A stretch of DNA of 64,000 nucleotides from Myxococcales bacterium (GTDB lineage: Bacteria > Myxococcota_A > Polyangia > Haliangiales > Haliangiaceae), in the NCBI GenBank assembly GCA_016707895.1, contig JADJGV010000002.1, forward strand, positions 591,695 through 655,694, given 5' to 3'. The translations under genes were made by a program, and so were the position numbers. Below the pieces are notes generated by a model. The model was not told where the DNA came from and ran no database searches. It saw nothing but the letters and a program-made list of their open reading frames with translations. Position 1 is the first letter of the stretch; the number at the start of each line of letters is the position of its first letter. Below are positions 36,980-47,309 of this stretch, piece by piece.

Positions 36980-37993
36980 GTGCACTTCATCGACGAGGCG
37001 ACGATCCACGTGAAGGCCGGCGACGGCGGCGACGGCTCGTCGGCGATGCGCCGCGAGGACAACGTGCCGCTGGGCGGCCCGTCGGGCGGCGACGGTGGCA
37101 ACGGCGCCAGCGTGGTGTTCCGCGCCGACGTCCAGCTCGGCTCGCTGCTCGACTTCCGCTACAAGCGCCACTACAAGGGCGAGCGCGGCGAGCACGGCCG
37201 GGCCAAGGATCAGTACGGCGCGGCCGCCGAGGATCTGGTGCTGCGGGTGCCGGTCGGCACGGTGATCTACGACGCCGACACCGGCGATCTGCTGGCCGAC
37301 CTCGCCACCGACGGCGCGCGCGCGGTCGTGGCCCAGGGCGGCAAGGGCGGCCGCGGCAACATCCACTTCAAGACCCCGTGGAACCAGGCGCCGCGCACCT
37401 GCGAGCCGGGCACGCCGGGCCAGGAGCGCACGCTGCGCCTCGAGCTCAAGCTGCTCGCCGACGTCGGCCTGCTCGGCTACCCCAACGTCGGCAAGTCGAC
37501 GTTCATCTCGCGGGTGTCGCGGGCCCGGCCCAAGATCGCCGACTACCCGTTCACGACGCTGGCGCCCAACCTGGGGGTGGTGCGGCTGTCCGACGAGCGC
37601 AGCCTGATCATCGCCGACATCCCCGGGCTGATCGAGGGCGCCGCCGAGGGCGCGGGGCTCGGCCACCAGTTCCTGCGCCACGTCGAGCGCTGCCGCGCGC
37701 TGCTGCACATCCTCGACGACACGTACACCACCGGGCCCGAGCGCGATCCGCTCAAGGACTTCGACGTCATCAACGCCGAGCTGGCCCGCTACGCGCCGCA
37801 CCTGGCCGACAAGCCGCAGCTGGTCGTGCTCAACAAGCTCGACGCCGGCACCACCCACGGCTCGGTCGACGAGCTGACGGCGCAGTTCGCGGCCCGCGGC
37901 ATCACGCTGCACACCATGTCGGCCGCCACCGGCGAGGGCGTCGACGCGGTGATCGCGCGGCTGTGGGACCTGGTGCATCCGCGGCCGGAGTGA
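36980..37993 (+). CDS. obg: GTPase Obg/CgtA
   Basis: GTG start gives (M)HFIDEATIHVKAGDGGDG…, the Obg N-domain Gly-rich motif. GLLGYPNVGKST is the G1 motif, DIPGLIEGA the G3, NKLD the G4. Tail of track ORF 35285..37993. Confidence 0.85.
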   Translation: MHFIDEATIHVKAGDGGDGSSAMRREDNVPLGGPSGGDGGNGASVVFRADVQLGSLLDFRYKRHYKGERGEHGRAKDQYGAAAEDLVLRVPVGTVIYDADTGDLLADLATDGARAVVAQGGKGGRGNIHFKTPWNQAPRTCEPGTPGQERTLRLELKLLADVGLLGYPNVGKSTFISRVSRARPKIADYPFTTLAPNLGVVRLSDERSLIIADIPGLIEGAAEGAGLGHQFLRHVERCRALLHILDDTYTTGPERDPLKDFDVINAELARYAPHLADKPQLVVLNKLDAGTTHGSVDELTAQFAARGITLHTMSAATGEGVDAVIARLWDLVHPRPE

Positions 37994-38012
37994 TCCGGCG
38001 CCGCGCCGGATC
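37992..38012 (+). terminator. GC-rich hairpin (9-bp stem GATCCGGCG/CGCCGGATC, 3-nt loop) overlapping the obg stop; putative U-tract-less terminator/attenuator
   Basis: Perfect inverted repeat read directly from the sequence. No T-tract follows, as is usual in very high-GC genomes. Confidence 0.3.
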
Positions 38013-38028
38013 GTGATATCCACGAGGC

Positions 38029-39963
38029 GTGCCGCGGTTCGAGCAGCGCGCCACCGGCCGGTTCTGGGAGGTCGAGGTCGACGATCGCGTCGTCACGACG
38101 TGCGTCGGGGCCATCGGCGGTGACCCGCCCAAGCCCGCCACCGTCGAGCACGCCGACGCCGACGCGGCCTACTACGCCGCGACCTCCGCGATCCGCCAGC
38201 AGCGCCGGCGCGGCTTCGTCGACGCCGGCCCGGCCCAGGTCCTCGCCGGCGCCGAGCCGTGGACCGGCGCCGGCTCGACCATCCTGCTCGACGAGTTCTT
38301 CGACCGCGGCGACGACCGATTCGGTCTCGAGCTGCGACGCGCGACCGCCGCCGCCAAGCTCGGCGCGCTGGCCGAACGCTGGTATCGCGATCCCCGGCCG
38401 TGGGCCCGGGCCCAGCTCCTGGCCTACCTCGACGACGGCTGCGATCGCCCGCACCACAAGCAGCTGATCAAGAAGCTGTTCAAGCTGGCCGAGGCCGCCG
38501 ACGACGATCGCGCGATGGCCGGGTTCCTGGTCGCGTTCGATCGCCTGACCCGGAGGTCGTTGGTCGCGGTCACGCGCTACGACTGGCAGACCCGCGTCAC
38601 CACCACGACCCACGTGCTGCGCGACGATCCCAGCGTCATCGAGAGCCTGGTCCGCGCCGGCCGCCCCGCGATCGACAGCCCTGTGTTCTCGCGGTCGACG
38701 CGGCGCTACCTGGCGCGCCGGGCCGCGCGCTACTTCCGCTACCTCGGCTACCGCGATCCGGCCCGCTACCGCGCGGCGATGCTGGTGGCGCTGGCCCGCT
38801 ACACCGACGCCGCGCTCGGCACCACCACCCGGCTGCTCGACGCCTGGGGCCTGACCCACGCGCTCTACGGCGGCTCGCCGGTGCTGGTCCACCACCCGCG
38901 CGGCCTGCGCCTCGCGCCCGATCGCCGGCTCGACGAGCTGACCCCGGCGCCGCAGATCCCGGCGGCGTGGCAGGACGCGTTCGCCGATGTCTGGCGCCTG
39001 TTCGTCGACGCGCGCAGCCGCGCGGTCCGGGCGTGGGCGCTGGCCTGGCTGCGCGCCCACCACGCCGCCGAGCTGGCCGCGCTGCCGTTCGCCGAGGTCG
39101 CGACGCTCCTGCGCTCGCCCCACGCCGACGTCGCCGCGCTCGGCGTCGAGCGGCTGCCGCACACCCGCGGCCTCGAGACCGTGCCGCTGACGATCTGGCT
39201 CGAGCTGCTCGCGCTCGGCGATCTCGACGTGGTCGCCGCGGTGGTCGCGACGGTCGAGCGGGTCGTGACGCCAGCCCGGACCACGCTCGCACAGTGCCTC
39301 GACCTGGCCGGCGCGCCGATCGCCGCGGTCGCGGAGCTCGGCCTCGCTTGGGCCAAGACCAAGCCGATCACCACCGTCGACGATCTGCACCTGATCGCGC
39401 GCCTGGCCCGGGCCCGGGTCGCCGCCGTCCGCGCCGCTGGCGCCGCGTGGGCCCTCGAACTCGCCGGCGCCCACCCCGCGGTCGACTACACCTTCGTCCG
39501 CGACCTGTGCGACGCGCCGTTCGCCGAGGTCCGCGCGCCGGCGCTCGCGGTTGCCGCCGCCGACCCGCGGTTCGCCGCGGTGCCGGCGCTGTGGTTCGCG
39601 CTCACCGAGTCGCCGTACGACGACGTCCGCGCCGCGGTGCTGGCCCACGCCACCCGCTGGCACGCGACCGCCACGCCGGCCACGCTGCAGTGGGTGTGGT
39701 CGGCGGCGATCCTCGCGGTCCACCGCGGCAGCAAGACCAAGGCCGGCGTGCCGCGCGCGATCGCCGACCGCGTCGTCGCGCACCCCGACGAGGCCGAGCA
39801 GCTGCTGCCGATGCTCGCGCTCGCGCTGCACAGCGTCCGCGCCCCCGAGCGCGCGGCGGCGCTGGCGGCGCTGGCGCGCGCGCTCCACGGCGATCCGGCG
39901 CTGGCGGCCCGGGCCCGCGTCCACCTGCCGACGCTCACCGTCGGCGTCGAGGTGATCCGGTGA
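38029..39963 (+). CDS. WGR-domain protein with C-terminal helical (HEAT/ARM-like) repeats
   Basis: N-terminus MPRFEQRATGRFWEVEVDDRVVTTCVGAIGG…RRRGFVD is a WGR domain. The middle region is similar to MolR/DUF4132-type proteins. The C-terminal half is repetitive Ala/Leu helices. Confidence 0.7.
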   Translation: MPRFEQRATGRFWEVEVDDRVVTTCVGAIGGDPPKPATVEHADADAAYYAATSAIRQQRRRGFVDAGPAQVLAGAEPWTGAGSTILLDEFFDRGDDRFGLELRRATAAAKLGALAERWYRDPRPWARAQLLAYLDDGCDRPHHKQLIKKLFKLAEAADDDRAMAGFLVAFDRLTRRSLVAVTRYDWQTRVTTTTHVLRDDPSVIESLVRAGRPAIDSPVFSRSTRRYLARRAARYFRYLGYRDPARYRAAMLVALARYTDAALGTTTRLLDAWGLTHALYGGSPVLVHHPRGLRLAPDRRLDELTPAPQIPAAWQDAFADVWRLFVDARSRAVRAWALAWLRAHHAAELAALPFAEVATLLRSPHADVAALGVERLPHTRGLETVPLTIWLELLALGDLDVVAAVVATVERVVTPARTTLAQCLDLAGAPIAAVAELGLAWAKTKPITTVDDLHLIARLARARVAAVRAAGAAWALELAGAHPAVDYTFVRDLCDAPFAEVRAPALAVAAADPRFAAVPALWFALTESPYDDVRAAVLAHATRWHATATPATLQWVWSAAILAVHRGSKTKAGVPRAIADRVVAHPDEAEQLLPMLALALHSVRAPERAAALAALARALHGDPALAARARVHLPTLTVGVEVIR

Positions 39964-41654
39964 AGGTCGACCTCCGCTACCACGGCGGCTCGGGGCTGCG
40001 CGAGCTGGCCGGCGGCGCCGGCCTGCGGTTCGCGACCAACGTCGCGCGGCTGCCGGTCGCGTTCGACGGCGAGCTGGTCGAGCCGCTGCGCTTCCGCGAG
40101 GCGGTGAGCGCGCTGCACGAGATCGTCGTCGGCGATCTGCGGTTCCAGCCGCGCGACAAGCGCGCGTACCAGGCGTGGCTGGCGCGCCAGGCCGCCGACG
40201 AGGCCACGCTGCGCGCCGCCGCCACCGCGCGCGGCCAGGCCGACGCGCTGGCCCGGGGCCCCGGCGGCCCGCCGCCGCCCGGCCTCGAGGCCGACTTCCG
40301 CCGCCAGCACGACCTGTACTGGACCGCGCGCCGCGCCTGGGCCGTCGAGCTCAACCGCAACGACCCGGCGATGTTCCGCGCGCTGGTGCCGTGCGATCCG
40401 GTCGTGACCGTCGCCCCCGACGTCGTCACCTTCGAGTGCTTCAGCAAGGACGAGTCGGCCTACGGCTGCCTGTCGGTCGATCGCGACGGCTTCCGCCCGG
40501 CCGCCGAGGTCGCGCTCGGCACCACCAACGTCGACTACTCGCTGGCGCTCTACGAGCACTTCCAGACCATCCGCACCTACCGACCGACCCGGCTGCAGGT
40601 CGACCCGGGCGGCGTCAGCGCCGCGGTCGGCGCGGCGTCCGCGCTGCGCGAGGAGAAGATCGACCTGCCGCCGTCGTGGCTGCGCGGGTTCGGCCAGCTC
40701 CAGGCGGCGATGGCGCTGCCGGCGCGCCACGTCGAGCTGTCGCCCGACGTCGTCTACTCGCTGCTGGCGTACCTGCGCCGCCACCGTGAGCGCACCGGCC
40801 CGCGCGCGCTGCGGTTCGTGCTCGCGCCGGGTCAGCCGCCGCAGGTCGTGATCGAGCCGTGGGGCGTCACGCTCACCTCGCGCGGCGCGCCGTACGCCGG
40901 CGACCGCGCCGAGGAGATCAAAGTGTGGGGCCGGCGCCGCTTGCTGGCGTTCGCGCGCACGCTGCCGCTGGCCGAGCGCTACGACGTGCGCCTGCTCGGC
41001 ACTGGCCTGCCGAGCGTGTGGATCGCGCGCATGGGCGCGCTGCGCCTGACCCTGGCGCTGTCGGGCTGGACCGCCAACGACTGGGCGCGGGGCTCGAACC
41101 TCGACGGCCACTTCGCCCGCTACACCGCCCACGCCAGCGCCGTCGACGCCGTGGCCCGGATCCTGGCCGCGCGCCACGTCGCGCCGATGGCCGCGCTGAC
41201 CGCCGCCGTGCCCGAGCCGCGCGAGACCGTGCTGGCCGCGCTGTTCGAGCTGGCGCGCCGCGGCCAGGTCGCGTTCGACTACGCGATCGACGCCTACCGC
41301 TGGCGGCCGATCCTCGACGCCGCGATCACCGACGCCGCGCTCGGCCCCGAGCCCGAGGAGACGGTGGCCGGGCGCCGGCTCGCCGCCAGCGTCACGATCG
41401 AGCGCCGCGAGCCACTCGGCGACGGCCGCCGCGCGCTGGTGGCCAAGGTCGGCGGCACCTCGTGCGAGGCGGTGCTCGACGCCGACGATCGGCTCGGCCG
41501 CGCCCGCTGCACCTGCTCGTACTTCCATCGCTTCCGCCTGCGCGCGGGGCCGTGCCGCCACCTGCTGGCGCTGCGCCTCCACGCCACGGCGCCCGACGAT
41601 CGCGCGCTGCCGGCGGCGCGCGTCGTCGCGTCCAACCCCCGGCGGTCGACCTGA
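39960..41654 (+). CDS. SWIM zinc-finger protein
   Basis: GTG start overlaps the WGR stop (GTGA). C-terminal CTCSYFHRFRLRAGPCRHLLAL is a CxCxnCxH SWIM motif. 564 aa. Confidence 0.7.
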   Translation: MKVDLRYHGGSGLRELAGGAGLRFATNVARLPVAFDGELVEPLRFREAVSALHEIVVGDLRFQPRDKRAYQAWLARQAADEATLRAAATARGQADALARGPGGPPPPGLEADFRRQHDLYWTARRAWAVELNRNDPAMFRALVPCDPVVTVAPDVVTFECFSKDESAYGCLSVDRDGFRPAAEVALGTTNVDYSLALYEHFQTIRTYRPTRLQVDPGGVSAAVGAASALREEKIDLPPSWLRGFGQLQAAMALPARHVELSPDVVYSLLAYLRRHRERTGPRALRFVLAPGQPPQVVIEPWGVTLTSRGAPYAGDRAEEIKVWGRRRLLAFARTLPLAERYDVRLLGTGLPSVWIARMGALRLTLALSGWTANDWARGSNLDGHFARYTAHASAVDAVARILAARHVAPMAALTAAVPEPRETVLAALFELARRGQVAFDYAIDAYRWRPILDAAITDAALGPEPEETVAGRRLAASVTIERREPLGDGRRALVAKVGGTSCEAVLDADDRLGRARCTCSYFHRFRLRAGPCRHLLALRLHATAPDDRALPAARVVASNPRRST

Positions 41655-41670
41655 TGTATCGTCCCTCGCA

Positions 41671-41695
41671 CCTCCCGTCCTGCAAGGAGATCCGC
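41671..41695 (+). repeat. retron inverted repeat a1 (CCTCCCGTCCTGCAAGGAGATCCGC)
   Basis: Reverse complement of the 41891-41915 repeat with 2 mismatches in 25 nt. It lies 17 nt after the SWIM stop. Confidence 0.6.
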
Positions 41696-41890
41696 GCGCA
41701 CGAGCCCACTATGCTGCGGCGTTCCGCCGTGGCGGGACTTGCTCCACCATTGCTCACCCACGCCCGATTTTCTTTTGGGCCCTATGCGGTGCTAGCGCTC
41801 CTCACTGAGACGACCACGAGAGTCTTGGGAGCCGCTAGCACCGCCGGGCCCTCGGTGATCGGTCGCGGTCCTGCGCACGAAGTCGAGCGA

Positions 41891-41915
41891 GCGGATCTCC
41901 TTGGAGGGCGGGAGG
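41891..41915 (+). repeat. retron inverted repeat a2 (GCGGATCTCCTTGGAGGGCGGGAGG)
   Basis: See a1. Confidence 0.6.
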
Positions 41916-41927
41916 CACGACACTGAC

Positions 41928-43550
41928 ATGGGGTTCTGGGACAAGGTCAAACGGTTCTTCGGCGGCGGCGGCGCGCTGCAGCCGGACCCGTCGGCGCCCA
42001 CTGCGGCACCGCCGTCGACGCCCACGCCGTCGACCCCGGCGCCGGCCCCCGCGCACACCGCCCCTGCGCCGCCAGCCGCGCGCACCGCACCCGCGCCGAC
42101 CTCGACCGACGACAGCGCGCGCTTCCGCAACCCGGCCATCCTCGGCCTGTCCGCCGCCGAGCTGCGCAAGCGCGCGCTGCGCATCAACCCGTACCAGACG
42201 CCGTGGATCGGCCGGGTCGACACCATCCCGCCGCAGAGCGACGAGCGCACCGCGATCATCGACCGCGGCCTGATCCTGCGCGGCCTGCTCACCGCCGCGC
42301 AGATCGAAGAGATCCACCGCGTCGGCGACCTGTGGCTCGCCCACCACGACGCGATGCGCCTGGCCGCCGCCGCCGGCGCCGCGTCGGGCGAGGCCGCGGT
42401 CGCCGCCGAGCGCGCCCGCCGCGCCGAGGCCAAGCGCGCCAAGCAGGCCGCGGCCGCCGCCCGCGCCGCCGCCCGCGCCGCCGCCGTCGCCGCGCGCCGC
42501 GCCACCGACATCATCTTCGTCGGCCGCGGCGTGTCCGCCGGCCTCGCCGACCGCCGCAGCCACGTCGAGCAGCTCGCCGCCGCCGGCCTGCCGGTCCTGG
42601 CCGCGCCCGCCGATCTCGCCGCCGCGCTCGGCCTGACCGTGCCGCGCCTGCGATGGCTGTGCTTCCACGCCGACGCGCCCGCGAAGACCCACTACACGTA
42701 CTTCACGATCCCCAAGCGCTCGGGCGGCACCCGCAAGCTGGCCGCGCCGCACCGCCAGCTCGCCGCGGCCCAGCGCTGGATCTTCGATCAGATCCTCGCG
42801 AAGCTGCCGATCACCGACGCCGCCCACGGCTTCGTCCCCGGGCGCTCGACGGTGACCAACGCCCGGCCCCACGTCGGCCAGCGCATCGTCATCAACCTGG
42901 ACCTGGCCGACTTCTTCCCGTCGATCACGTTCCCGCGCGTCCGCGGCCTGTTCGCCTCGCTCGGCTACTCGCCGGCGATCGCGACGCTCCTGGCCATGCT
43001 CACCACCGAGGCGCCGCGGGTCGAGGTCGAGTTCGCCGGCCGCACCCACTACGTCGCCACCGGTCCGCGCGCGCTGCCCCAGGGCGCGTGCACCAGCCCG
43101 ACCTTGGCCAACCTGGTCGCGCGCAAGCTCGATCGTCGCCTCGGCGGCGCTACCCGCAAGCTCGGCTGGACCTACACCCGCTACGCCGACGACCTGACGT
43201 TCTCGGCGCCGGCCGCGGGCTCGGCCCAGGTCGCGCTGATCTTCGCCCGGGTCCGCGCCATCGTCACCGCCGAGGGCTTCGCGGTGAACGAGGCCAAGGG
43301 CCGGGTCCAGCGCGGCGGCCGCCACACCGTCACCGGCCTGGTCGTCAACGATCGGCTCGCCGTCCCGCGCGAGCAGGTGCGCCGGGTCCGCGCGATCCTC
43401 CACGGCGCCCGCACGACCGGGCTGGCCGCGCAGAACCGCGCCGGCCATCCCGACTTCCGCGCATGGCTGCAAGGCACGATCGCCTACATCCACATGGTCG
43501 ACCCCGCGCGCGGCGCCGCCTTCCAGGCCCAACTCGACGCGCTATCGTGA
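41928..43550 (+). CDS. retron-type reverse transcriptase with ~210-aa N-terminal extension
   Basis: RBS GGAGGG, then ATG 41928. RT blocks: YFTIPKRSGGTRKLAAP; NARPH (retron NAxxH); INLDLADFFPSI; LPQGACTSPTLANL; YTRYADDLTFS (YADD); and RGGRHTVTGLVVN (retron VTG). The N-terminus has a Pro/Ala/Thr low-complexity region, a helical domain and an Ala/Arg/Lys coiled-coil. Confidence 0.85.
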   Translation: MGFWDKVKRFFGGGGALQPDPSAPTAAPPSTPTPSTPAPAPAHTAPAPPAARTAPAPTSTDDSARFRNPAILGLSAAELRKRALRINPYQTPWIGRVDTIPPQSDERTAIIDRGLILRGLLTAAQIEEIHRVGDLWLAHHDAMRLAAAAGAASGEAAVAAERARRAEAKRAKQAAAAARAAARAAAVAARRATDIIFVGRGVSAGLADRRSHVEQLAAAGLPVLAAPADLAAALGLTVPRLRWLCFHADAPAKTHYTYFTIPKRSGGTRKLAAPHRQLAAAQRWIFDQILAKLPITDAAHGFVPGRSTVTNARPHVGQRIVINLDLADFFPSITFPRVRGLFASLGYSPAIATLLAMLTTEAPRVEVEFAGRTHYVATGPRALPQGACTSPTLANLVARKLDRRLGGATRKLGWTYTRYADDLTFSAPAAGSAQVALIFARVRAIVTAEGFAVNEAKGRVQRGGRHTVTGLVVNDRLAVPREQVRRVRAILHGARTTGLAAQNRAGHPDFRAWLQGTIAYIHMVDPARGAAFQAQLDALS

Positions 43551-43613
43551 TCGACGCCCCGGTCGACGCACCGCCCGACTGCGCCGCCAACGGGGCCCGC
43601 GCGCCACACGCTG

Positions 43614-43799
43614 ATGGTCGCGGCCGCCGACATCGCCGATCCCGCGGCGCGCACCTACGACATCACCGGCGAGGCCACCCACGGCCACACCGTGATGCTC
43701 ACCGCAGCCGACTTCGCGGAGCTGGCCGCCAACCGCCGGGTCACCGTGACCTCGAGCGCGGTCGGTCACAGCCACGCCGTCACGATCACCTGCGTCTGA
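43614..43799 (+). CDS. small hypothetical protein (61 aa), possible retron-associated ORF
   Basis: ATG start 64 nt after the RT stop. Strong third-position GC bias. His-rich (HGH, HSH) motifs. No TM segment. Confidence 0.4.
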   Translation: MVAAADIADPAARTYDITGEATHGHTVMLTAADFAELAANRRVTVTSSAVGHSHAVTITCV

Positions 43800-43974
43800 G
43801 CCGTCGCCGCGATCTCGACAAAATTCATCGGGATTTCAGACTTCTGCAAGATCGTGACGGCGGTCAAGGACGGGGGCGCGGCAGTTTGATCCGCTCCCTG
43901 CGGGGTGTTACAACTGCTCTATTCCACTCGAATTTGGCCGACCCGTCCCTCGGCCATCGTGGACCGGTTCGCCG

Positions 43975-44855
43975 GTGCGGAGCCCCATGCGTCAAACCCA
44001 GATCTCCCGCCGCGGTCTCGACCGCACCTCCGTGACTGTCCTCGCGCTGGCGCTCGCCGCTGGCTCCGTCGCAGCGCAGCCTGGTGCGACCCCGACCGGC
44101 ACGCCGACGACGCCCAAGCCTCCGACCACCGCGCTGCCCGCCACGACCGGCACCCCGGCGACCGGCACCCCGACGACCGACCGACGACGCCGACGACCGG
44201 CACGCCGACGACGCCGACCACCGGCACGCCGGCCACCGGCACGCCGACGACGGGCGCCCCGACGCCAGGCACCACGCCGACCGATCCCACCGATCCCAAC
44301 CAGACCGCCACCGCCGACACCGTCGACCCCGAGTCGATGCCGGTCAACCTGCGGCTGCGCCGTCTCGAGCAGCGCGTGCAGGCCCTCAAGGAGCGCGCCT
44401 GGCGCGCCAAGGCCCGCACCACGCAGCTCAAGGAGGCCGTCATCGGCGGCGGCGTCGGCGCCCAGGCCACGCTCGTCCACGAGAACAAGATGGGCAGCTC
44501 GTTCCGGCTGATCCGCCTGGTCTACGCCCTCGACGGCACCCAGGTGTTCGCCCGCTCCGAGGACACCAGCCCCAACCTGTACAAGACCAAGTCGTTCGAC
44601 ATCCTCACCGGCCCGATCTCGCCCGGCAGCCACTCGATCAGCGCGCTCGCGGTGTACCGCGGCCACGGCTACGGCGTGTTCAAGTACCTCAACAAGTACA
44701 CGTTCACCGTCCGCGCCAGCCACACCTTCACCGCCGCCGAGGGCAAGGCCACCCGCATCGAGGCGTCGGGCTTCGAGAAGGGCGGCCGCACCACGCCGCT
44801 CGAGAAGCGCCCCGCGATCGACTTCAAGGTGACCGCCGGGACCGGGGAGAAGTAA
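43975..44855 (+). pseudogene. Pro/Thr-repeat secreted protein with -1 frameshift in the (TPTTG)n repeat; first gene of Glt/Nfs-like operon
   Basis: Frame A (43975-) reads MRQTQISRRGLDRTSVTVLALALAAGSVAAQP + TPTGTPTT…, a signal peptide plus linker. Frame B (to 44855) continues PTTPTTGTP…NQTATADTV… into a globular C-domain. The switch is at ACCGACCGACG near 44175-44190. It is either a sequencing error in a slippery repeat or a genuine frameshift. Confidence 0.5.
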
Positions 44856-44858
44856 GCC

Positions 44859-47309
44859 ATGGCGTCCGGTTCGCGCACCGCGCTCGCCGCGGTGCTCATC
44901 GCATGCGCCGGCGGGGCGGTGGCCCCGGTCCGCGCCGACGTGCTCGACGACATCGGCAAGAAGCTGGTGACCGTCGAGGGCGAGGCCCGCGAGCTCGGCA
45001 GCGGCATCAAGAAGCCGACCGGCCAGCCCAAGAAGGACGACGTCATGTCGCGCCGGCTGATCGACGCCCAGGTGGCGTTCGGCGTCGGCAACTACGACAA
45101 CGCCGCGCTCCTGCTCTACGACTACGTCGCGCAAGCGACGCGCGGCCGCGACTACGACACCGCGCTCTACTACCTCGGCGAGGCGCTGTTCCAGAAGAAG
45201 GACCGCGTCGCGTCGCGCACCTACTTCACCCAGCTGGTCAAGGAGCTGCCGTCGAGCAAGTACTACCAGCAGTCGCTCGAGCGGCTGATCGAGCTGTCGC
45301 TGATCCTCGGCGACACCGACGGCGTCGACGCGTGGCTGGCCGACCTCGATCGGGTGCCGTCCGACAAGCGGCGGCCGTCGGTGCCCTACGTCCGCGGCAA
45401 GTACGCGTTCGCGCAGAACGACTTCGCCGGCGCCGAGGGCTGGTTCAAGCAGGTCCCGGCCGACTCCGAGTACGGCTTCCAGGCCCAGTACTACCTGGGC
45501 ACCGCGTACGTCGGCATGAGGGAGCTCGGCAAGGCCACCCAGGCCATGGCCGCGCTGCTCGATCGCGAGCCCAAGACCGACGACGACGCCCGGGTCAAGG
45601 AGCTGGCGCAGCTGGCGCTGGGCCGCCTGTACTACGAGCGCGATCAGCCGACCAAGGCCATCGACAGCTACCTGCTGCTCGACCGCAAGAGCGACCTGTT
45701 CCCCGACGCGCTCTACGAGGTCGCGTGGGTCTACGTGAAGTCGCAGCAGTACGACAAGGCGCTGCGCGCGCTCGAGCTGTTGGCGCTGGCCGACCCGACC
45801 TCGCAGCGGCTGCCGACGGTGCGCATCCTCGAGGGCAACCTACGCGTGCGCAAGGCCCAGGGCATCCACGAGAAGGTGCTGGCCGGCCTCGACACCGGCA
45901 GCGCCAGCGGCACCGAGGAGTACGACAAGGCGACCCGCCTGTTCGGCGAGACCCACGAGCTGTACGCGCCGCCCCACGACGAGCTGGCCAAGATCATCGC
46001 CGCCAACGAGGACCCGCAGGCGTTCCTGGCGCAGATCACCGGCCGCGCGTCGGAGACCTTCCACACCAACTCGACGATGCCGGAGATCGCCGCGGCGTGG
46101 ATCCGCGACGAGCCCAACGTCAACCGGGTGATGACCGTCGAGACCGACCTCGGCGACATCCAGGGCGAGATCAACGAGGCCGAGCGCACGATCCAGCGGC
46201 TCGACGCCGTGCTCGGCTCGGCCAACCGGGTCAACATCTTCCCGTCGCTGGCCACCAAGCGCTCGCGCTCGACCGAGCTGCTCGAGGACCTGCTCGGCAT
46301 GCGCGAGAAGCTGGCCGACGAGGAGTACCGGCTGGCGCAGCAAGGCAACGCCAACGCCCAGCTGGCCGCGGTCGAGCCGCTGACCCAGCGCCGGCGCGCG
46401 CTCTTGACGCAGTGGAAGGCGATGCCCGACGCGGCGATCAGCTACGGCCAGCGCGTCGAGAAGGCCCAGGGCCAGTTCGACGACGTCGATCGCCAGCTGG
46501 CCGAGGTGCTGGTCACGATCGACACCACCCAGGCCACGGTCGTCGCGCTCGACAAGTTTGTCAAGGAGTCGGCCGAGCCGTCGGACCCCGCCGCCAAGAA
46601 GGCGTGGATCGCCCAGAAGCTCGAGGCGCAGAAGGTGATCGCCGAGCTCAACATCGAGATGGCCGAGATGCACCAAGAGCTCGACGGCATCCGCCGCGAG
46701 GTCGTGCTGGGCCGCGACGAGGCCGGCAGCGGCGACGAGGTGTCGCTGCGCGCCCGGACGCTGCGCGATCAGCTGCGCGCCGCCTACGCCGACGAGCACC
46801 GCGCGGTGGCGCGGCTGACGCTGGCCGACGCCAAGCGCGGCGGCAAGATCGGTGACCTGATCCGCCGCTCCGACGCGGCGATGGGGCAGCTCGACACCGT
46901 CAACGACACGATCGATCAGATCGTCGAGGTGGCGCTGACCGAGGTCCAGGACACGCTGACCTACGAGAAGGCCGAGCTGGCGTCGTACCGCCGCGAGTTC
47001 TTGCTGTACGAGGCCGAGTCGCGCGCGCTCGGCGGCACCGTGCTCGGCAACGCGTTCCGCGACGTCAAGGCCAAGTTCTACGACGTGCTGGTGCGCTCCG
47101 ACGTCGGCGTCGTCGACGTCGGCTGGTCGCAGAAGGAAGAGTCCGACGAGGATCTGTCGCGGCTCAACGTCGAGAAGCAGCGCGAGATCAAGCAGCTGCG
47201 CGACGAGTTCGCCGACCTGATCCGCGAGGCCAAGGAGGACGCGCCCGCGCCGGCCCCCGAGCCGGCCCCGCCGCCGCCCGATGGCGCCACGCCGGGAGGT
47301 CTGCCGTGA
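44859..47309 (+). CDS. TPR-repeat / coiled-coil envelope protein (Glt/Nfs-like)
   Basis: Signal peptide MASGSRTALAAVLIACAGGAVAPVRA. TPR-like YY…A…Y repeats are followed by a long Glu/Lys/Gln coiled-coil. Translationally linked to neighbours. Confidence 0.7.
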   Translation: MASGSRTALAAVLIACAGGAVAPVRADVLDDIGKKLVTVEGEARELGSGIKKPTGQPKKDDVMSRRLIDAQVAFGVGNYDNAALLLYDYVAQATRGRDYDTALYYLGEALFQKKDRVASRTYFTQLVKELPSSKYYQQSLERLIELSLILGDTDGVDAWLADLDRVPSDKRRPSVPYVRGKYAFAQNDFAGAEGWFKQVPADSEYGFQAQYYLGTAYVGMRELGKATQAMAALLDREPKTDDDARVKELAQLALGRLYYERDQPTKAIDSYLLLDRKSDLFPDALYEVAWVYVKSQQYDKALRALELLALADPTSQRLPTVRILEGNLRVRKAQGIHEKVLAGLDTGSASGTEEYDKATRLFGETHELYAPPHDELAKIIAANEDPQAFLAQITGRASETFHTNSTMPEIAAAWIRDEPNVNRVMTVETDLGDIQGEINEAERTIQRLDAVLGSANRVNIFPSLATKRSRSTELLEDLLGMREKLADEEYRLAQQGNANAQLAAVEPLTQRRRALLTQWKAMPDAAISYGQRVEKAQGQFDDVDRQLAEVLVTIDTTQATVVALDKFVKESAEPSDPAAKKAWIAQKLEAQKVIAELNIEMAEMHQELDGIRREVVLGRDEAGSGDEVSLRARTLRDQLRAAYADEHRAVARLTLADAKRGGKIGDLIRRSDAAMGQLDTVNDTIDQIVEVALTEVQDTLTYEKAELASYRREFLLYEAESRALGGTVLGNAFRDVKAKFYDVLVRSDVGVVDVGWSQKEESDEDLSRLNVEKQREIKQLRDEFADLIREAKEDAPAPAPEPAPPPPDGATPGGLP

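What the first reader, a model, noticed from the sequence alone, without database searches (positions are those of the whole stretch)
41928..42620. Retron RT carries a ~210-aa N-terminal extension (low-complexity Pro/Ala linker, helical domain, Ala/Lys/Arg coiled-coil)
Canonical retron RTs begin close to the YxxxxIPKKxGGxR block. Here that block (HYTYFTIPKRSGGTRKL) starts near residue 250. The extension contains a PAPAP-rich linker, a conserved-looking helical segment (FRNPAILGLSAAELRKRALRINPYQTPWIGRVD…IEEIHRVGDLWLAHHDAM) and an ARRAEAKRAKQAAAAARAAARAAAVAARRA coiled-coil. A fused N-terminal domain could be an effector or sensor module. Alternatively the true start is downstream and part of this region is untranslated.
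Basis: seen in the sequence. Interest (0 to 1): 0.6.

Follow-up and report, generated by a model that had tools for sequence, protein, structure and literature searches.

The report
Membrane-anchor-like N-terminal arm on retron RT
The long extra N-terminal piece on this retron reverse transcriptase is real, translated and conserved across myxobacteria, and it looks like a membrane anchor on a flexible leash plus a small unknown domain and a rigid helix, not an enzyme.

Summary
The ORF at 41928-43550 encodes a 540-aa retron reverse transcriptase (RT). Ec86 RT residue 12 aligns with its residue 216, so about 205 residues are extra. The locus is a complete type XIII retron: HEAT/ARM-WGR gene, SWIM gene, msr-msd ncRNA with a 38-nt a1/a2 repeat ending 8 nt before the ATG, then the RT.

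The extension is translated and under selection. GC3 is 0.87-1.0 from the ATG, over 100 full-length homologues share it, and all 80 genome loci examined have it fused in frame to the RT.

It has four parts:
- a terminal amphipathic helix (GFWDKVKRFFGG) resembling the E. coli MinD membrane-targeting sequence; some homologues carry a transmembrane-like helix there instead;
- a disordered Pro/Ala spacer of very variable length that tolerates compensated frameshifts;
- a small domain with an invariant WIGRxDxIPPxxDxxT loop and no known relatives;
- a predicted 71-residue helix of fixed length with a basic stripe and no regular heptad pattern.

Only residues from about 163 onward are homologous to the known Mx162 RT extension.

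My best reading is a membrane tether plus docking scaffold; that step is inferred, not shown. I found no catalytic signature, and the downstream-start alternative is refuted.

The parts
38029..39963 (+). HEAT/ARM-repeat accessory protein with an N-terminal WGR-like domain (644 aa). First gene of the type XIII retron.
   Evidence: PADLOC HEAT-ARM_XIII E=1.8e-157 and WGR_XIII 1.3e-25. Weak Pfam WGR hit, below threshold. Syntenic in nearly all related loci with enough upstream flank.
39960..41654 (+). SWIM zinc-finger protein (564 aa, GTG start overlapping the upstream stop by 4 nt). Predicted primary effector of type XIII retrons.
   Evidence: PADLOC SWIM_XIII E=1.3e-167. Pfam SWIM 7.8e-5. CTC-x12-CRH motif is readable in the translation. 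GTGA overlap seen. Homologous genes are 564 aa.
41666..41920 (+). Retron msr-msd non-coding RNA. a1 arm 41666-41703, a2 arm 41883-41920. Inner msd hairpin with perfect 12-bp arms 41786-41797/41833-41844.
   Evidence: 38-nt inverted repeat, 84% complementary, 179 nt apart. MFE -152.6 kcal/mol, z = -8.6 against shuffles. An equivalent repeat (median arm 33 nt, loop 180 nt) lies upstream of the RT in 63 related loci. No Rfam family matched.
41903..41915 (+). Shine-Dalgarno-like GGAGGGCGGGAGG for the RT, embedded in the a2 arm.
   Evidence: Read directly from the sequence.
41928..43550 (+). Retron reverse transcriptase ORF, 540 aa plus stop.
   Evidence: PADLOC RT_XIII E=1.5e-154. Pfam RVT_1. 100% identical annotated protein P0024. 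GC3 periodicity in this frame.
41931..41966 (+). Residues 2-13, GFWDKVKRFFGG: N-terminal amphipathic helix and putative membrane-targeting sequence.
   Evidence: AF2 predicts a helix at residues 4-10. Hydrophobic moment 0.63, against a control median of 0.29 and 95th percentile of 0.61. W4 is invariant; D5, K8 and G12 are at least 90% conserved. No amino-acid changes against three close relatives. Some homologues have a transmembrane-like helix here instead. Resembles the E. coli MinD MTS KGFLKRLFGG (PMC5471200).
41967..42131 (+). Residues 14-68: disordered Pro/Ala/Thr/Ser spacer.
   Evidence: pLDDT below 50. Its length varies: the WIGR motif sits at residue 67 to 274 in homologues. 19 of the 24 amino-acid differences from the closest relative fall here, with dN/dS 0.4-0.8. 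The window and L084 differ here by a compensated +1/-1 frameshift.
42132..42362 (+). Residues 69-145: conserved small helical domain with the invariant loop W93-I-G-R-V-D-T-I-P-P-Q-S-D-E-R-T108. No known relatives. It overlaps the start of the long helix.
42294..42506 (+). Residues 123-193: one long predicted alpha-helix (71 residues) of fixed length with a conserved basic stripe. Ala/Arg/Lys-rich here, Glu/Lys/Arg-rich in homologues.
   Evidence: AF2 helix 123-193, with pLDDT 76-95 along it. The distance from the WIGR motif to the IPKR motif is exactly 168 aa wherever both motifs were found. Only one insertion column (7 sequences) lies between residues 64 and 260. R162, K/R165, K169, K172, R179, R183, R190 and R191 are conserved, with no regular heptad hydrophobics. 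The region is homologous to the Mx162-type RT from residue ~163.
42507..42677 (+). Residues 194-250: conserved DIIFxGRGVSxxLxDRRxHVE...GLPVL...LRWLCFH segment joining the helix to the RT fingers. Residues 216-250 correspond to the N-terminus of Ec86 RT.
   Evidence: pLDDT 82-97. Aligned with Ec86 residues 12-45 and with Mx162 RT.
42678..43547 (+). Residues 251-540: RT core with retron motifs (NARPH 311-315, YADD 419-422, VTG 468-470).

Best explanation
The segment 41928-42620 encodes the true N-terminus of the RT of a chromosomal type XIII retron. The gene order is HEAT/ARM-WGR, SWIM, msr-msd, RT. The host is a Kofleriaceae-like myxobacterium.

The ~215-residue extension is a non-catalytic appendage with four parts.
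1. Residues 2-13 form an amphipathic helix, GFWDKVKRFFGG. I read it as an in-plane membrane anchor of the MinD/SepF type.
2. Residues ~14-68 are a disordered Pro/Ala spacer. Only its presence and composition are conserved, not its sequence or length.
3. Residues ~69-145 form a small, strongly conserved domain. Its invariant WIGRxDxIPPxxDxxT loop is probably a docking surface for a partner, either protein or nucleic acid.
4. Residues 123-193 form a rigid helix of fixed length with a basic stripe. Its C-terminal part packs onto the RT and is shared with Mx162-type RTs.

Proposed mechanism: the RT-msDNA complex is held at the cytoplasmic face of the inner membrane on a flexible leash. Its HEAT/ARM and SWIM partners are presumably held with it. 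The conserved domain and helix position partners relative to the polymerase.

Shown: translation, conservation, architecture, and fusion to the RT wherever the RT region was available.
Inferred: membrane binding, the docking role, and any consequence for retron function.
For: Type XIII identity:
- PADLOC hits RT_XIII 1.5e-154, SWIM_XIII 1.3e-167 and HEAT-ARM_XIII 1.8e-157.
- The ncRNA has a 38-nt a1/a2 repeat and folds with z = -8.6.

Translation and start codon:
- GC3 periodicity begins at 41928.
- P0024 is an identical annotated protein.
- The ncRNA ends 8 nt before the ATG here, and a median of 26 nt before the equivalent start in 63 loci.

Conservation:
- 104 full-length homologues show invariant W4 and 29 other invariant extension residues.
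- Against close relatives, the amphipathic helix has no amino-acid changes. dN/dS is 0.35-0.41 for the domain and 0.14-0.21 for the helix.
- All 80 genome loci have the domain fused in frame to the RT core. HEAT-SWIM-RT synteny holds in nearly all loci with enough flank.

Membrane anchor:
- The hydrophobic moment is 0.63, above the 95th percentile of control 11-mers. The family median is 0.48, against 0.24 for Mx162-like N-termini.
- About 111 of 119 close homologues start with the M-G-[FILV]-W-D-K-[VIL]-K-x-x-[FL]-G motif (the second adjusted by eye).
- The pattern resembles the E. coli MinD MTS KGFLKRLFGG (PMC5471200).
- In other homologues the same position holds a hydrophobic transmembrane-like helix. 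A K/R cluster and the same Pro-rich spacer follow it. Examples are P0092, P0121, P0228, P0242, P0254, P0278, P0248 and the multi-pass P0257.
- Two such variants, P0092 and the less hydrophobic P0087, sit in the same three-gene arrangement with the a1/a2 repeat directly upstream.

Spacer:
- pLDDT is below 50.
- Length varies widely.
- A compensated frameshift separates the window from L084.

Fixed-length helix.
Against: - No experiment or membrane-binding predictor was available, so the anchor role rests on physico-chemical pattern and on substitution by hydrophobic helices.
- A minority of diverged homologues appear to lack both an amphipathic and a hydrophobic N-terminus. They begin with another small domain, for example P0184, P0206 and P0221.
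- Two MAG loci place a zinc ribbon in front of the helix (L019, L032).
- Mx162-type RTs work with homologous SWIM and HEAT partners without residues 1-162. The distal module is therefore not required for type XIII function in general.
- The conserved domain is modelled only at moderate confidence: pLDDT 63-85 in the full-length model and 71 on its own.
- Amphipathic helices can also mediate protein-protein contacts.
Confidence: 0.55

Rival explanations
1. The terminal amphipathic peptide is a tethered docking motif. It inserts into the groove of the HEAT/ARM-repeat partner, or binds the SWIM protein. The conserved WIGR domain is a second contact. On this reading the extension is an assembly arm for the retron complex and not a membrane anchor.
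For: HEAT/ARM repeats commonly bind short peptides (general knowledge). Mestre et al. 2020 report that type XIII RTs co-evolve with the HEAT/ARM accessory protein (cluster 216) more than with the SWIM protein (PMC7736814). A short conserved motif on a long disordered leash fits this reading.
Against: Homologues in the same gene arrangement replace the peptide with a hydrophobic transmembrane-like helix followed by a K/R cluster. That is hard to reconcile with a specific groove-binding peptide. Two genome loci (L012, L030) keep the peptide but have no HEAT or SWIM gene within 7 kb. Mx162-type RTs have the same partners without this peptide.
Confidence: 0.2
2. The conserved WIGR domain is a sensor or an effector. 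It would bind a phage or cellular ligand, or carry an unrecognised activity that controls the RT.
For: Charged and aromatic residues are very strongly conserved: R80, R82, W93, R96, D98, D105, D112, R113, H130, D134 and W136. They lie in and around a loop modelled with low confidence, as expected for a site that becomes ordered on binding.
Against: No match to any enzymatic or ligand-binding family or fold. The domain is small, about 55 residues plus the start of a helix. In the full-length hits examined it occurs only in front of this RT. Candidate effectors are already encoded upstream.
Confidence: 0.12
3. The long helix is a dimerisation or oligomerisation coiled coil. The extension would mainly serve to multimerise the RT. 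This is not exclusive of the other readings.
For: A 71-residue isolated helix in a monomer prediction often pairs in reality. Partial hydrophobic occupancy at residues 161, 168 and 175 is spaced by seven.
Against: Those positions are hydrophobic in only 26-29% of sequences. There is no conserved a/d seam. The strongest conservation lies in a basic stripe. Homologues are Glu/Lys/Arg-rich, like single alpha-helices.
Confidence: 0.12
4. The start codon is mis-called. Part of 41928-42620 is untranslated and the RT begins near residue 200-220.
For: Canonical retron RTs are about 300-400 aa (PMC6868368). High-GC genomes produce long spurious ORFs, and several overlap here on the minus strand.
Against: GC3 is 0.87-1.0 from 41928 onward. 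Protein-level conservation, including the first 13 residues, holds across Polyangia and Myxococcia. dN/dS is below 0.45 for the ordered parts. The ncRNA ends 8 nt upstream.
Confidence: 0.01

Closest known systems
Type XIII retrons (Mestre et al. 2020, RT clade 10: Mx162, Mx65, Sa163, Ne144)
   Same: Same three protein families with very strong PADLOC matches. Same long a1/a2 repeat and ncRNA placed directly upstream of the RT. [quoted passage not shown]
   Different: No member of this sub-family has been characterised experimentally, as far as the searchable literature shows. Its RT is 518-724 aa, against 485 aa for Mx162 and 427 aa recalled for Mx65 (the Mx65 length is from memory and was not checked here).
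N-terminal extension of Mx162-type RTs (M. xanthus 485-aa RT, P0284)
   Same: Both have a charged helix followed by a hhhxGxGV...GLPxL...LRW segment before the RT core. Identity is 45% from window residue 179 to Mx162 residue 98. The profile-profile alignment starts at window residue 163 and Mx162 residue 82. Reviews list this extension as 'of unknown function' (PMC6868368).
   Different: Window residues 1-162 (amphipathic helix, spacer, WIGR domain) have no counterpart in Mx162 residues 1-81. Mx162-like N-termini are not amphipathic, with a median hydrophobic moment of 0.24. At least one Sorangium genome (So ce134) carries both kinds (P0387 and L035).
MinD C-terminal and SepF N-terminal membrane-targeting amphipathic helices
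   Same: A 10-12 residue terminal amphipathic helix has aromatic and aliphatic residues on one face and flanking Lys/Arg, and it ends in Gly-Gly. Compare GFWDKVKRFFGG with the E. coli MinD sequence KGFLKRLFGG (PMC5471200). As in SepF (my own knowledge), a flexible linker follows the helix.
   Different: There is no homology, only a resemblance of pattern. It is attached to a reverse transcriptase and not to a cell-division protein. Membrane binding has not been tested.
ER/K single alpha-helix (SAH) spacers
   Same: A long helix that is Glu/Lys/Arg/Ala-rich and has few hydrophobic residues. It could serve as a rigid spacer of defined length.
   Different: Specific basic positions are conserved, and the C-terminal half is modelled with high confidence, so it probably packs on the RT. 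A pure SAH conserves composition only.

Membership tests
Retron | RT with retron-specific motifs (region X NAxxH, region Y VTG) and a YADD catalytic box | tested here: met
   N311-A-R-P-H315, Y419-A-D-D422 and V468-T-G470 are present in the translation and conserved in 104 homologues. The best solved relatives are retron RTs: Ec86 at 3.5e-40.
Retron | Adjacent msr-msd ncRNA flanked by a1/a2 inverted repeats | tested here: met
   38-nt repeat at 41666-41703 / 41883-41920. The fold is a closing stem, an msr hairpin and a long msd hairpin, z = -8.6. Conserved in 63 related loci.
Retron | Production of msDNA with a 2'-5' branch at a priming guanosine | not testable with these tools
   Needs an experiment. 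The branching G was not assigned.
Type XIII retron | RT belongs to clade 10 | tested here: met
   RT_XIII is the best PADLOC model at 1.5e-154. The next best are RT_other (4.4e-106) and RT_outgroup (1.2e-100). The RT is 45% identical to Mx162 RT. No phylogeny was built.
Type XIII retron | [quoted passage not shown] | tested here: met
   SWIM_XIII 1.3e-167. Pfam SWIM. CTC-SYFHRFRLRAGP-CRH is in the translation.
Type XIII retron | HEAT/ARM-repeat accessory protein, often with a WGR-like domain, preceding the SWIM gene | tested here: met
   HEAT-ARM_XIII 1.8e-157 and WGR_XIII 1.3e-25. The gene lies directly upstream and overlaps the SWIM start.
Type XIII retron | Type XIII consensus ncRNA structure | tested here: inconclusive
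   No model of that structure was available. Rfam has no match. Only the general retron architecture and the long a1/a2 stem were verified.
Mx162-type N-terminal extension | Homology over the whole extension | tested here: not met
   Homology starts at window residue 163 (hhalign) or 179 (BLASTP). Residues 1-162 are unrelated.
Membrane-targeting amphipathic helix (MinD/SepF type) | Short terminal helix with a high hydrophobic moment, a hydrophobic face and flanking basic residues | tested here: met
   Hydrophobic moment 0.63, above the 95th percentile of controls. AF2 helix at residues 4-10. F3, W4, V7, F10 and F11 lie on one face; K6, K8 and R9 on the other (sequence).
Membrane-targeting amphipathic helix (MinD/SepF type) | Functional equivalence to a membrane anchor: replaceable by a transmembrane segment | tested here: met
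   Natural homologues carry transmembrane-like helices with a following K/R cluster at the same position. Two such variants sit in the same retron arrangement.
Membrane-targeting amphipathic helix (MinD/SepF type) | Demonstrated lipid or membrane binding | not testable with these tools
   Needs localisation or liposome assays.
Coiled coil | Conserved heptad a/d hydrophobic seam | tested here: not met
   Between residues 146 and 193 only 158 and 187 are consistently hydrophobic. Residues 161, 168 and 175 are hydrophobic in 26-29% of sequences.
ER/K single alpha-helix | Glu/Lys/Arg-rich helix without a hydrophobic seam, conserved in composition and not in sequence | tested here: inconclusive
   Composition fits in the homologues. 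However, specific basic positions are conserved, and the window's version is Ala/Arg-rich.

The most novel reading that the evidence does not exclude
A large myxobacterial sub-family of type XIII retrons has a reverse transcriptase that is physically tethered to the cytoplasmic membrane. The anchor is a MinD-like amphipathic helix, or in some lineages a true transmembrane helix, on a long disordered leash. The msDNA-RT complex and its SWIM and HEAT partners would then act at the membrane. Possible roles are guarding the site of DNA entry, or keeping a putative nuclease away from the nucleoid until it is triggered. This would be the first retron whose RT itself is membrane-localised. It would also give a handle on the long-unknown role of the N-terminal extensions of myxobacterial retron RTs.
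Probability: 0.45. Interest if true: 0.65.

Novelty: new variant of a known kind. Interest (0 to 1): 0.45.

Why it matters
Myxobacterial retrons were the first retrons discovered, yet their biological role and the purpose of their RTs' N-terminal extensions are still unknown (PMC6868368).

This analysis splits the extension into two parts. The proximal part is shared with Mx162. The distal module is specific to this sub-family, and its anatomy points to membrane tethering.

That gives concrete, cheap experiments: localisation of short fusions, and N-terminal truncations in msDNA assays. It also suggests a spatial component to retron function.

For biotechnology, it marks which residues are probably dispensable when trimming these RTs for heterologous use (1-68, perhaps 1-162). 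It also marks which are probably integral to the enzyme (about 163-250).

Tried and rejected
- Rfam scan of 38000-47000. The only hit was a chance microRNA match at E=0.29.
- Pfam, NCBIfam and PADLOC on residues 1-215 or 1-231. Nothing was found except the RT_XIII profile touching residues 142-231.
- Profile of the WIGR domain against all PDB sequences. The best E-value was 0.06, a chance match to a lactone dehydrogenase.
- A first N-terminus-only protein search returned only 120-340-aa proteins without an RT domain. This briefly suggested a stand-alone protein. Inspection showed contig-end truncations and frameshifted tails. All 80 genome loci have the fusion.
- Two multi-repeat hits of the profile search (P0195, P0279) are eukaryotic repeat proteins and spurious.
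- The small ORF at 43614-43799 was checked as a possible extra retron gene. It is conserved only in the closest relative.
- My automatic classifier for amphipathic versus transmembrane N-termini was too strict, and the counts had to be corrected by eye.
- I considered whether the 71-residue helix (~105 A) measures the 38-bp a1/a2 duplex. I dropped the idea as numerology without support.
Full report
OBSERVATION

The window is about 75% G+C. The ORF at 41901-43550 (+) contains an ATG at 41928 that opens a 540-aa protein beginning MGFWDKVKRFFGG.

- a Pro/Ala/Thr/Ser stretch at residues ~16-68;
- the segment FRNPAILGLS...HHDAM at residues ~65-143;
- ARRAEAKRAKQAAAAARAAARAAAVAARRA at residues 163-192;
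- HYTYFTIPKRSGGTRKL from residue 255.

Pfam RVT_1 starts at residue 261. Ec86 RT residue 12 aligns with residue 216. The extension over a canonical retron RT is therefore about 205 residues.

IS IT TRANSLATED?

Yes, for four reasons.
- GC at the third codon position in this frame is 0.87-1.0 in every 90-nt window from 41928 to the stop. The 270 nt upstream show no periodicity.
- An identical 540-aa protein with the same start is annotated in a Myxococcales MAG (P0024). A partial identical copy comes from a Kofleriaceae MAG (P0023).
- A search with the full protein returns hundreds of RTs of 518-724 aa covering 84-100% of the query. They come from Kofleriaceae, Sorangium, Polyangium, Labilithrix, Minicystis and others.
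- An alignment of 104 of these has 30 invariant positions within the extension, including W4, R80, R82, P88, W93, G95, R96, D98, I100, P101, P102, D105, T108, I111-G114, H130, G133, D134, W136, R190 and D194.

Against three close relatives, the first 13 residues show no amino-acid change. dN/dS is 0.35-0.41 for residues 69-145 and 0.14-0.21 for residues 146-193. The RT core has 0.17-0.20.

CONTEXT

PADLOC identifies all three proteins of a type XIII retron:
- HEAT-ARM_XIII with a WGR-like N-terminus at 38029-39963 (E=1.8e-157);
- SWIM_XIII at 39960-41654 (E=1.3e-167), with CTC-x12-CRH in the sequence;
- RT_XIII (E=1.5e-154).

Between the SWIM gene and the RT lies a 38-nt inverted repeat, 41666-41703 / 41883-41920, with 179 nt between the arms. 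This segment folds into the classical retron shape of a closing a1/a2 stem, an msr hairpin and a long msd hairpin. The MFE is -152.6 kcal/mol and z = -8.6.

Type XIII is the class that holds Mx162, Mx65, Sa163 and Ne144. Mestre et al. describe it as vertically inherited, with the RT co-evolving with the HEAT/ARM protein (PMC7736814). In three related genomes the retron sits between obg and TPR genes, as it does here.

ANATOMY OF THE EXTENSION

AlphaFold2 on the 104-sequence alignment gives mean pLDDT 84.8. It predicts:
- a short helix at residues 4-10;
- disorder at residues 14-68 (pLDDT below 50);
- helices at 76-84 and 106-117;
- one continuous helix at 123-193;
- then the RT.

Comparative data sharpen each part.

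(i) The N-terminal peptide. M-G-[FILV]-W-D-K-[VIL]-K-x-x-[FL]-G-G opens about 111 of 119 close homologues and most genome loci. It is a near-perfect amphipathic helix. F3, W4, V7, F10 and F11 lie on one face, and D5, K6, K8 and R9 on the other. Its hydrophobic moment is 0.63. Control 11-mers have a median of 0.29 and a 95th percentile of 0.61. Mx162-like N-termini have a median of 0.24.

(ii) The spacer. The WIGR motif sits anywhere from residue 67 to residue 274 in homologues. Against the closest relative (L084), 19 of the 24 amino-acid differences fall in the spacer. The DNA alignment shows a +1 insertion and a -1 deletion about 70 nt apart. The same DNA is therefore read in another frame, yet it still yields a Pro/Ala-rich peptide. 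Only composition is constrained here.

(iii) The WIGR domain (residues ~69-145). This is the most conserved part, but it is modelled only moderately well (pLDDT 63-85).

(iv) The long helix. The distance from the WIGR motif to the IPKR motif is exactly 168 residues wherever both motifs were detected. Only one insertion column (7 sequences) occurs between residues 64 and 260. Hydrophobic positions are sparse and not heptad-spaced. A stripe of basic residues is conserved instead: R162, K/R165, K169, K172, R179, R183, R190 and R191. In homologues the helix is Glu/Lys/Arg-rich. In this very GC-rich genome it is Ala/Arg-rich.

IS THE DOMAIN FOUND ELSEWHERE?

A profile of residues 64-150 was run against 1.84 billion representative proteins. 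It gave 157 hits at E<=0.001. Every full-length hit I examined carries RT motifs, and the rest are short fragments. Two eukaryotic repeat proteins were spurious.

A scan of one genome per GTDB species found 115 loci. The best 80 span Polyangia and Myxococcia, plus a few MAGs labelled Acidobacteriota. In all 80 the domain is followed in frame by the RT core. HEAT-SWIM-RT synteny holds in nearly all loci with enough flank.

The domain has no relatives in Pfam, NCBIfam, PDB sequences or PDB folds.

RELATION TO THE KNOWN MYXOCOCCAL EXTENSION

I retrieved the 485-aa M. xanthus RT (P0284). I identify it as Mx162 RT from memory of that sequence; the database names it only as a Myxococcus xanthus RT. 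BLASTP aligns it with the window protein from window residue 179 and Mx162 residue 98, at 45% identity. A profile-profile comparison of the two families starts at window residue 163 and Mx162 residue 82, and finds nothing upstream.

Only the proximal part of the extension is therefore the 'known' one. That part comprises the end of the basic helix and the DIIFxGRGVS...LRWLCFH segment, and is modelled at pLDDT 91-97. Residues 1-162 are a separate module specific to this sub-family. Sorangium sp. So ce134 carries both kinds of RT (P0387, L035).

MECHANISM

The key clue is natural substitution. In some homologues the amphipathic peptide is replaced by a hydrophobic, transmembrane-like helix. A Lys/Arg cluster and the same Pro-rich spacer and WIGR domain follow it. 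Examples:
- P0121: TGTLVTILAVIAIQVIARVVKARDVKK
- P0228: MDFWLHILRIVTIVVVAAIVLWFLKKKN
- P0242, P0254, P0278 and P0248

P0257 has several such helices followed by an RVT_1 domain. Two variants, P0092 (L081) and the less hydrophobic P0087 (L082), sit in the same three-gene arrangement with the a1/a2 repeat immediately upstream of their start codons.

The peptide also resembles the E. coli MinD membrane-targeting sequence KGFLKRLFGG (PMC5471200). From my own knowledge it also resembles the N-terminal anchor-plus-linker of SepF.

I therefore propose that the extension tethers the RT-msDNA complex to the cytoplasmic face of the membrane on a flexible leash. The WIGR domain would act as a docking surface. 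The fixed-length basic helix would act as a rigid connector that is partly integral to the polymerase. Membrane binding and docking are inferences.

Rivals are:
- a peptide that docks into the HEAT/ARM partner;
- a sensor role for the WIGR loop;
- helix-mediated oligomerisation.

Caveats are:
- some diverged homologues appear to lack any anchor and begin with another small domain;
- Mx162-type retrons manage without the module.

NOVELTY AND SCORE

The retron is an ordinary member of type XIII. An extended N-terminus in myxobacterial RTs has been known for decades.

What I could not find in the searchable literature is any dissection of this sub-family's extension, or any suggestion that a retron RT is membrane-anchored. 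I therefore rate it a new variant of a known kind.

Interest is moderate (0.45). It is a clear, testable hypothesis about an old open question, but it rests on sequence analysis alone.

Noticed in passing
window 41883-41930; L082 5969-6004; L029: The a2 arm of the retron ncRNA contains the RT's Shine-Dalgarno-like sequence (GGAGGGCGGGAGG, 41903-41915) and ends 8 nt before the ATG. In L082 and L029 the arm overlaps the start codon by 4 nt. Formation of the a1/a2 stem could therefore occlude RT translation initiation. This may be a form of autoregulation.
   Followed up: partly
window 41967-42131 compared with L084 5040-5210: The linker differs from its closest relative by a +1 insertion and a -1 deletion about 70 nt apart. 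About 20 codons are read in another frame but still encode a Pro/Ala-rich peptide. This is either real compensated frameshifting in an unconstrained spacer or MAG assembly error.
   Followed up: partly
L012 (Minicystis rosea CP016211) and L030: These loci encode the full N-terminal module fused to the RT. They have no SWIM or HEAT/ARM gene within 7 kb on either side and no a1/a2 inverted repeat upstream. They look like orphan RT copies.
   Followed up: no
L007-L009, L011, L013, L015, L025, L026, L071 (Archangium and Myxococcaceae); P0102, P0184, P0206, P0221: Many lineages carry an extra conserved segment of roughly 70-200 aa between the anchor and the WIGR domain (motifs such as AQQNLVRDAMLGRV and FxAVDVAD). 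Some diverged proteins begin with it and lack any anchor. Pfam finds nothing in it.
   Followed up: partly
L019 and L032 (MAGs labelled Acidobacteriota / Thermoanaerobaculia): A CxxC...CxxC zinc-ribbon-like peptide precedes the amphipathic motif in the same reading frame, so the helix is not strictly N-terminal there. The taxonomic labels may reflect mis-binning or horizontal transfer.
   Followed up: no
L083-L085 and window 37000-47300: The retron lies between an obg GTPase gene and large TPR-repeat genes, with identical synteny in three related genomes. This is a chromosomal, vertically inherited position and not a mobile defence island.
   Followed up: partly
window 43614-43799 (+): A 61-aa ORF lies in the same frame as the RT, 63 nt after its stop, and has high GC3. 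It is conserved only in the closest relative (L084), where a 90-aa gene overlapping the RT stop was called. It is probably not a retron component.
   Followed up: yes
L035 and P0387 (Sorangium sp. So ce134); P0361-P0403: Sorangium genomes carry both an Mx162-like RT (about 480-500 aa) and this WIGR-type RT. These are two paralogous type XIII retrons in one genome.
   Followed up: no
L068 (MAG JADJBV010000001, P0003): The RT gene appears frameshifted between the N-terminal module and the RT core, so the N-terminal part was called as a separate 251-aa protein. This is a pseudogene or a long-read assembly error.
   Followed up: partly
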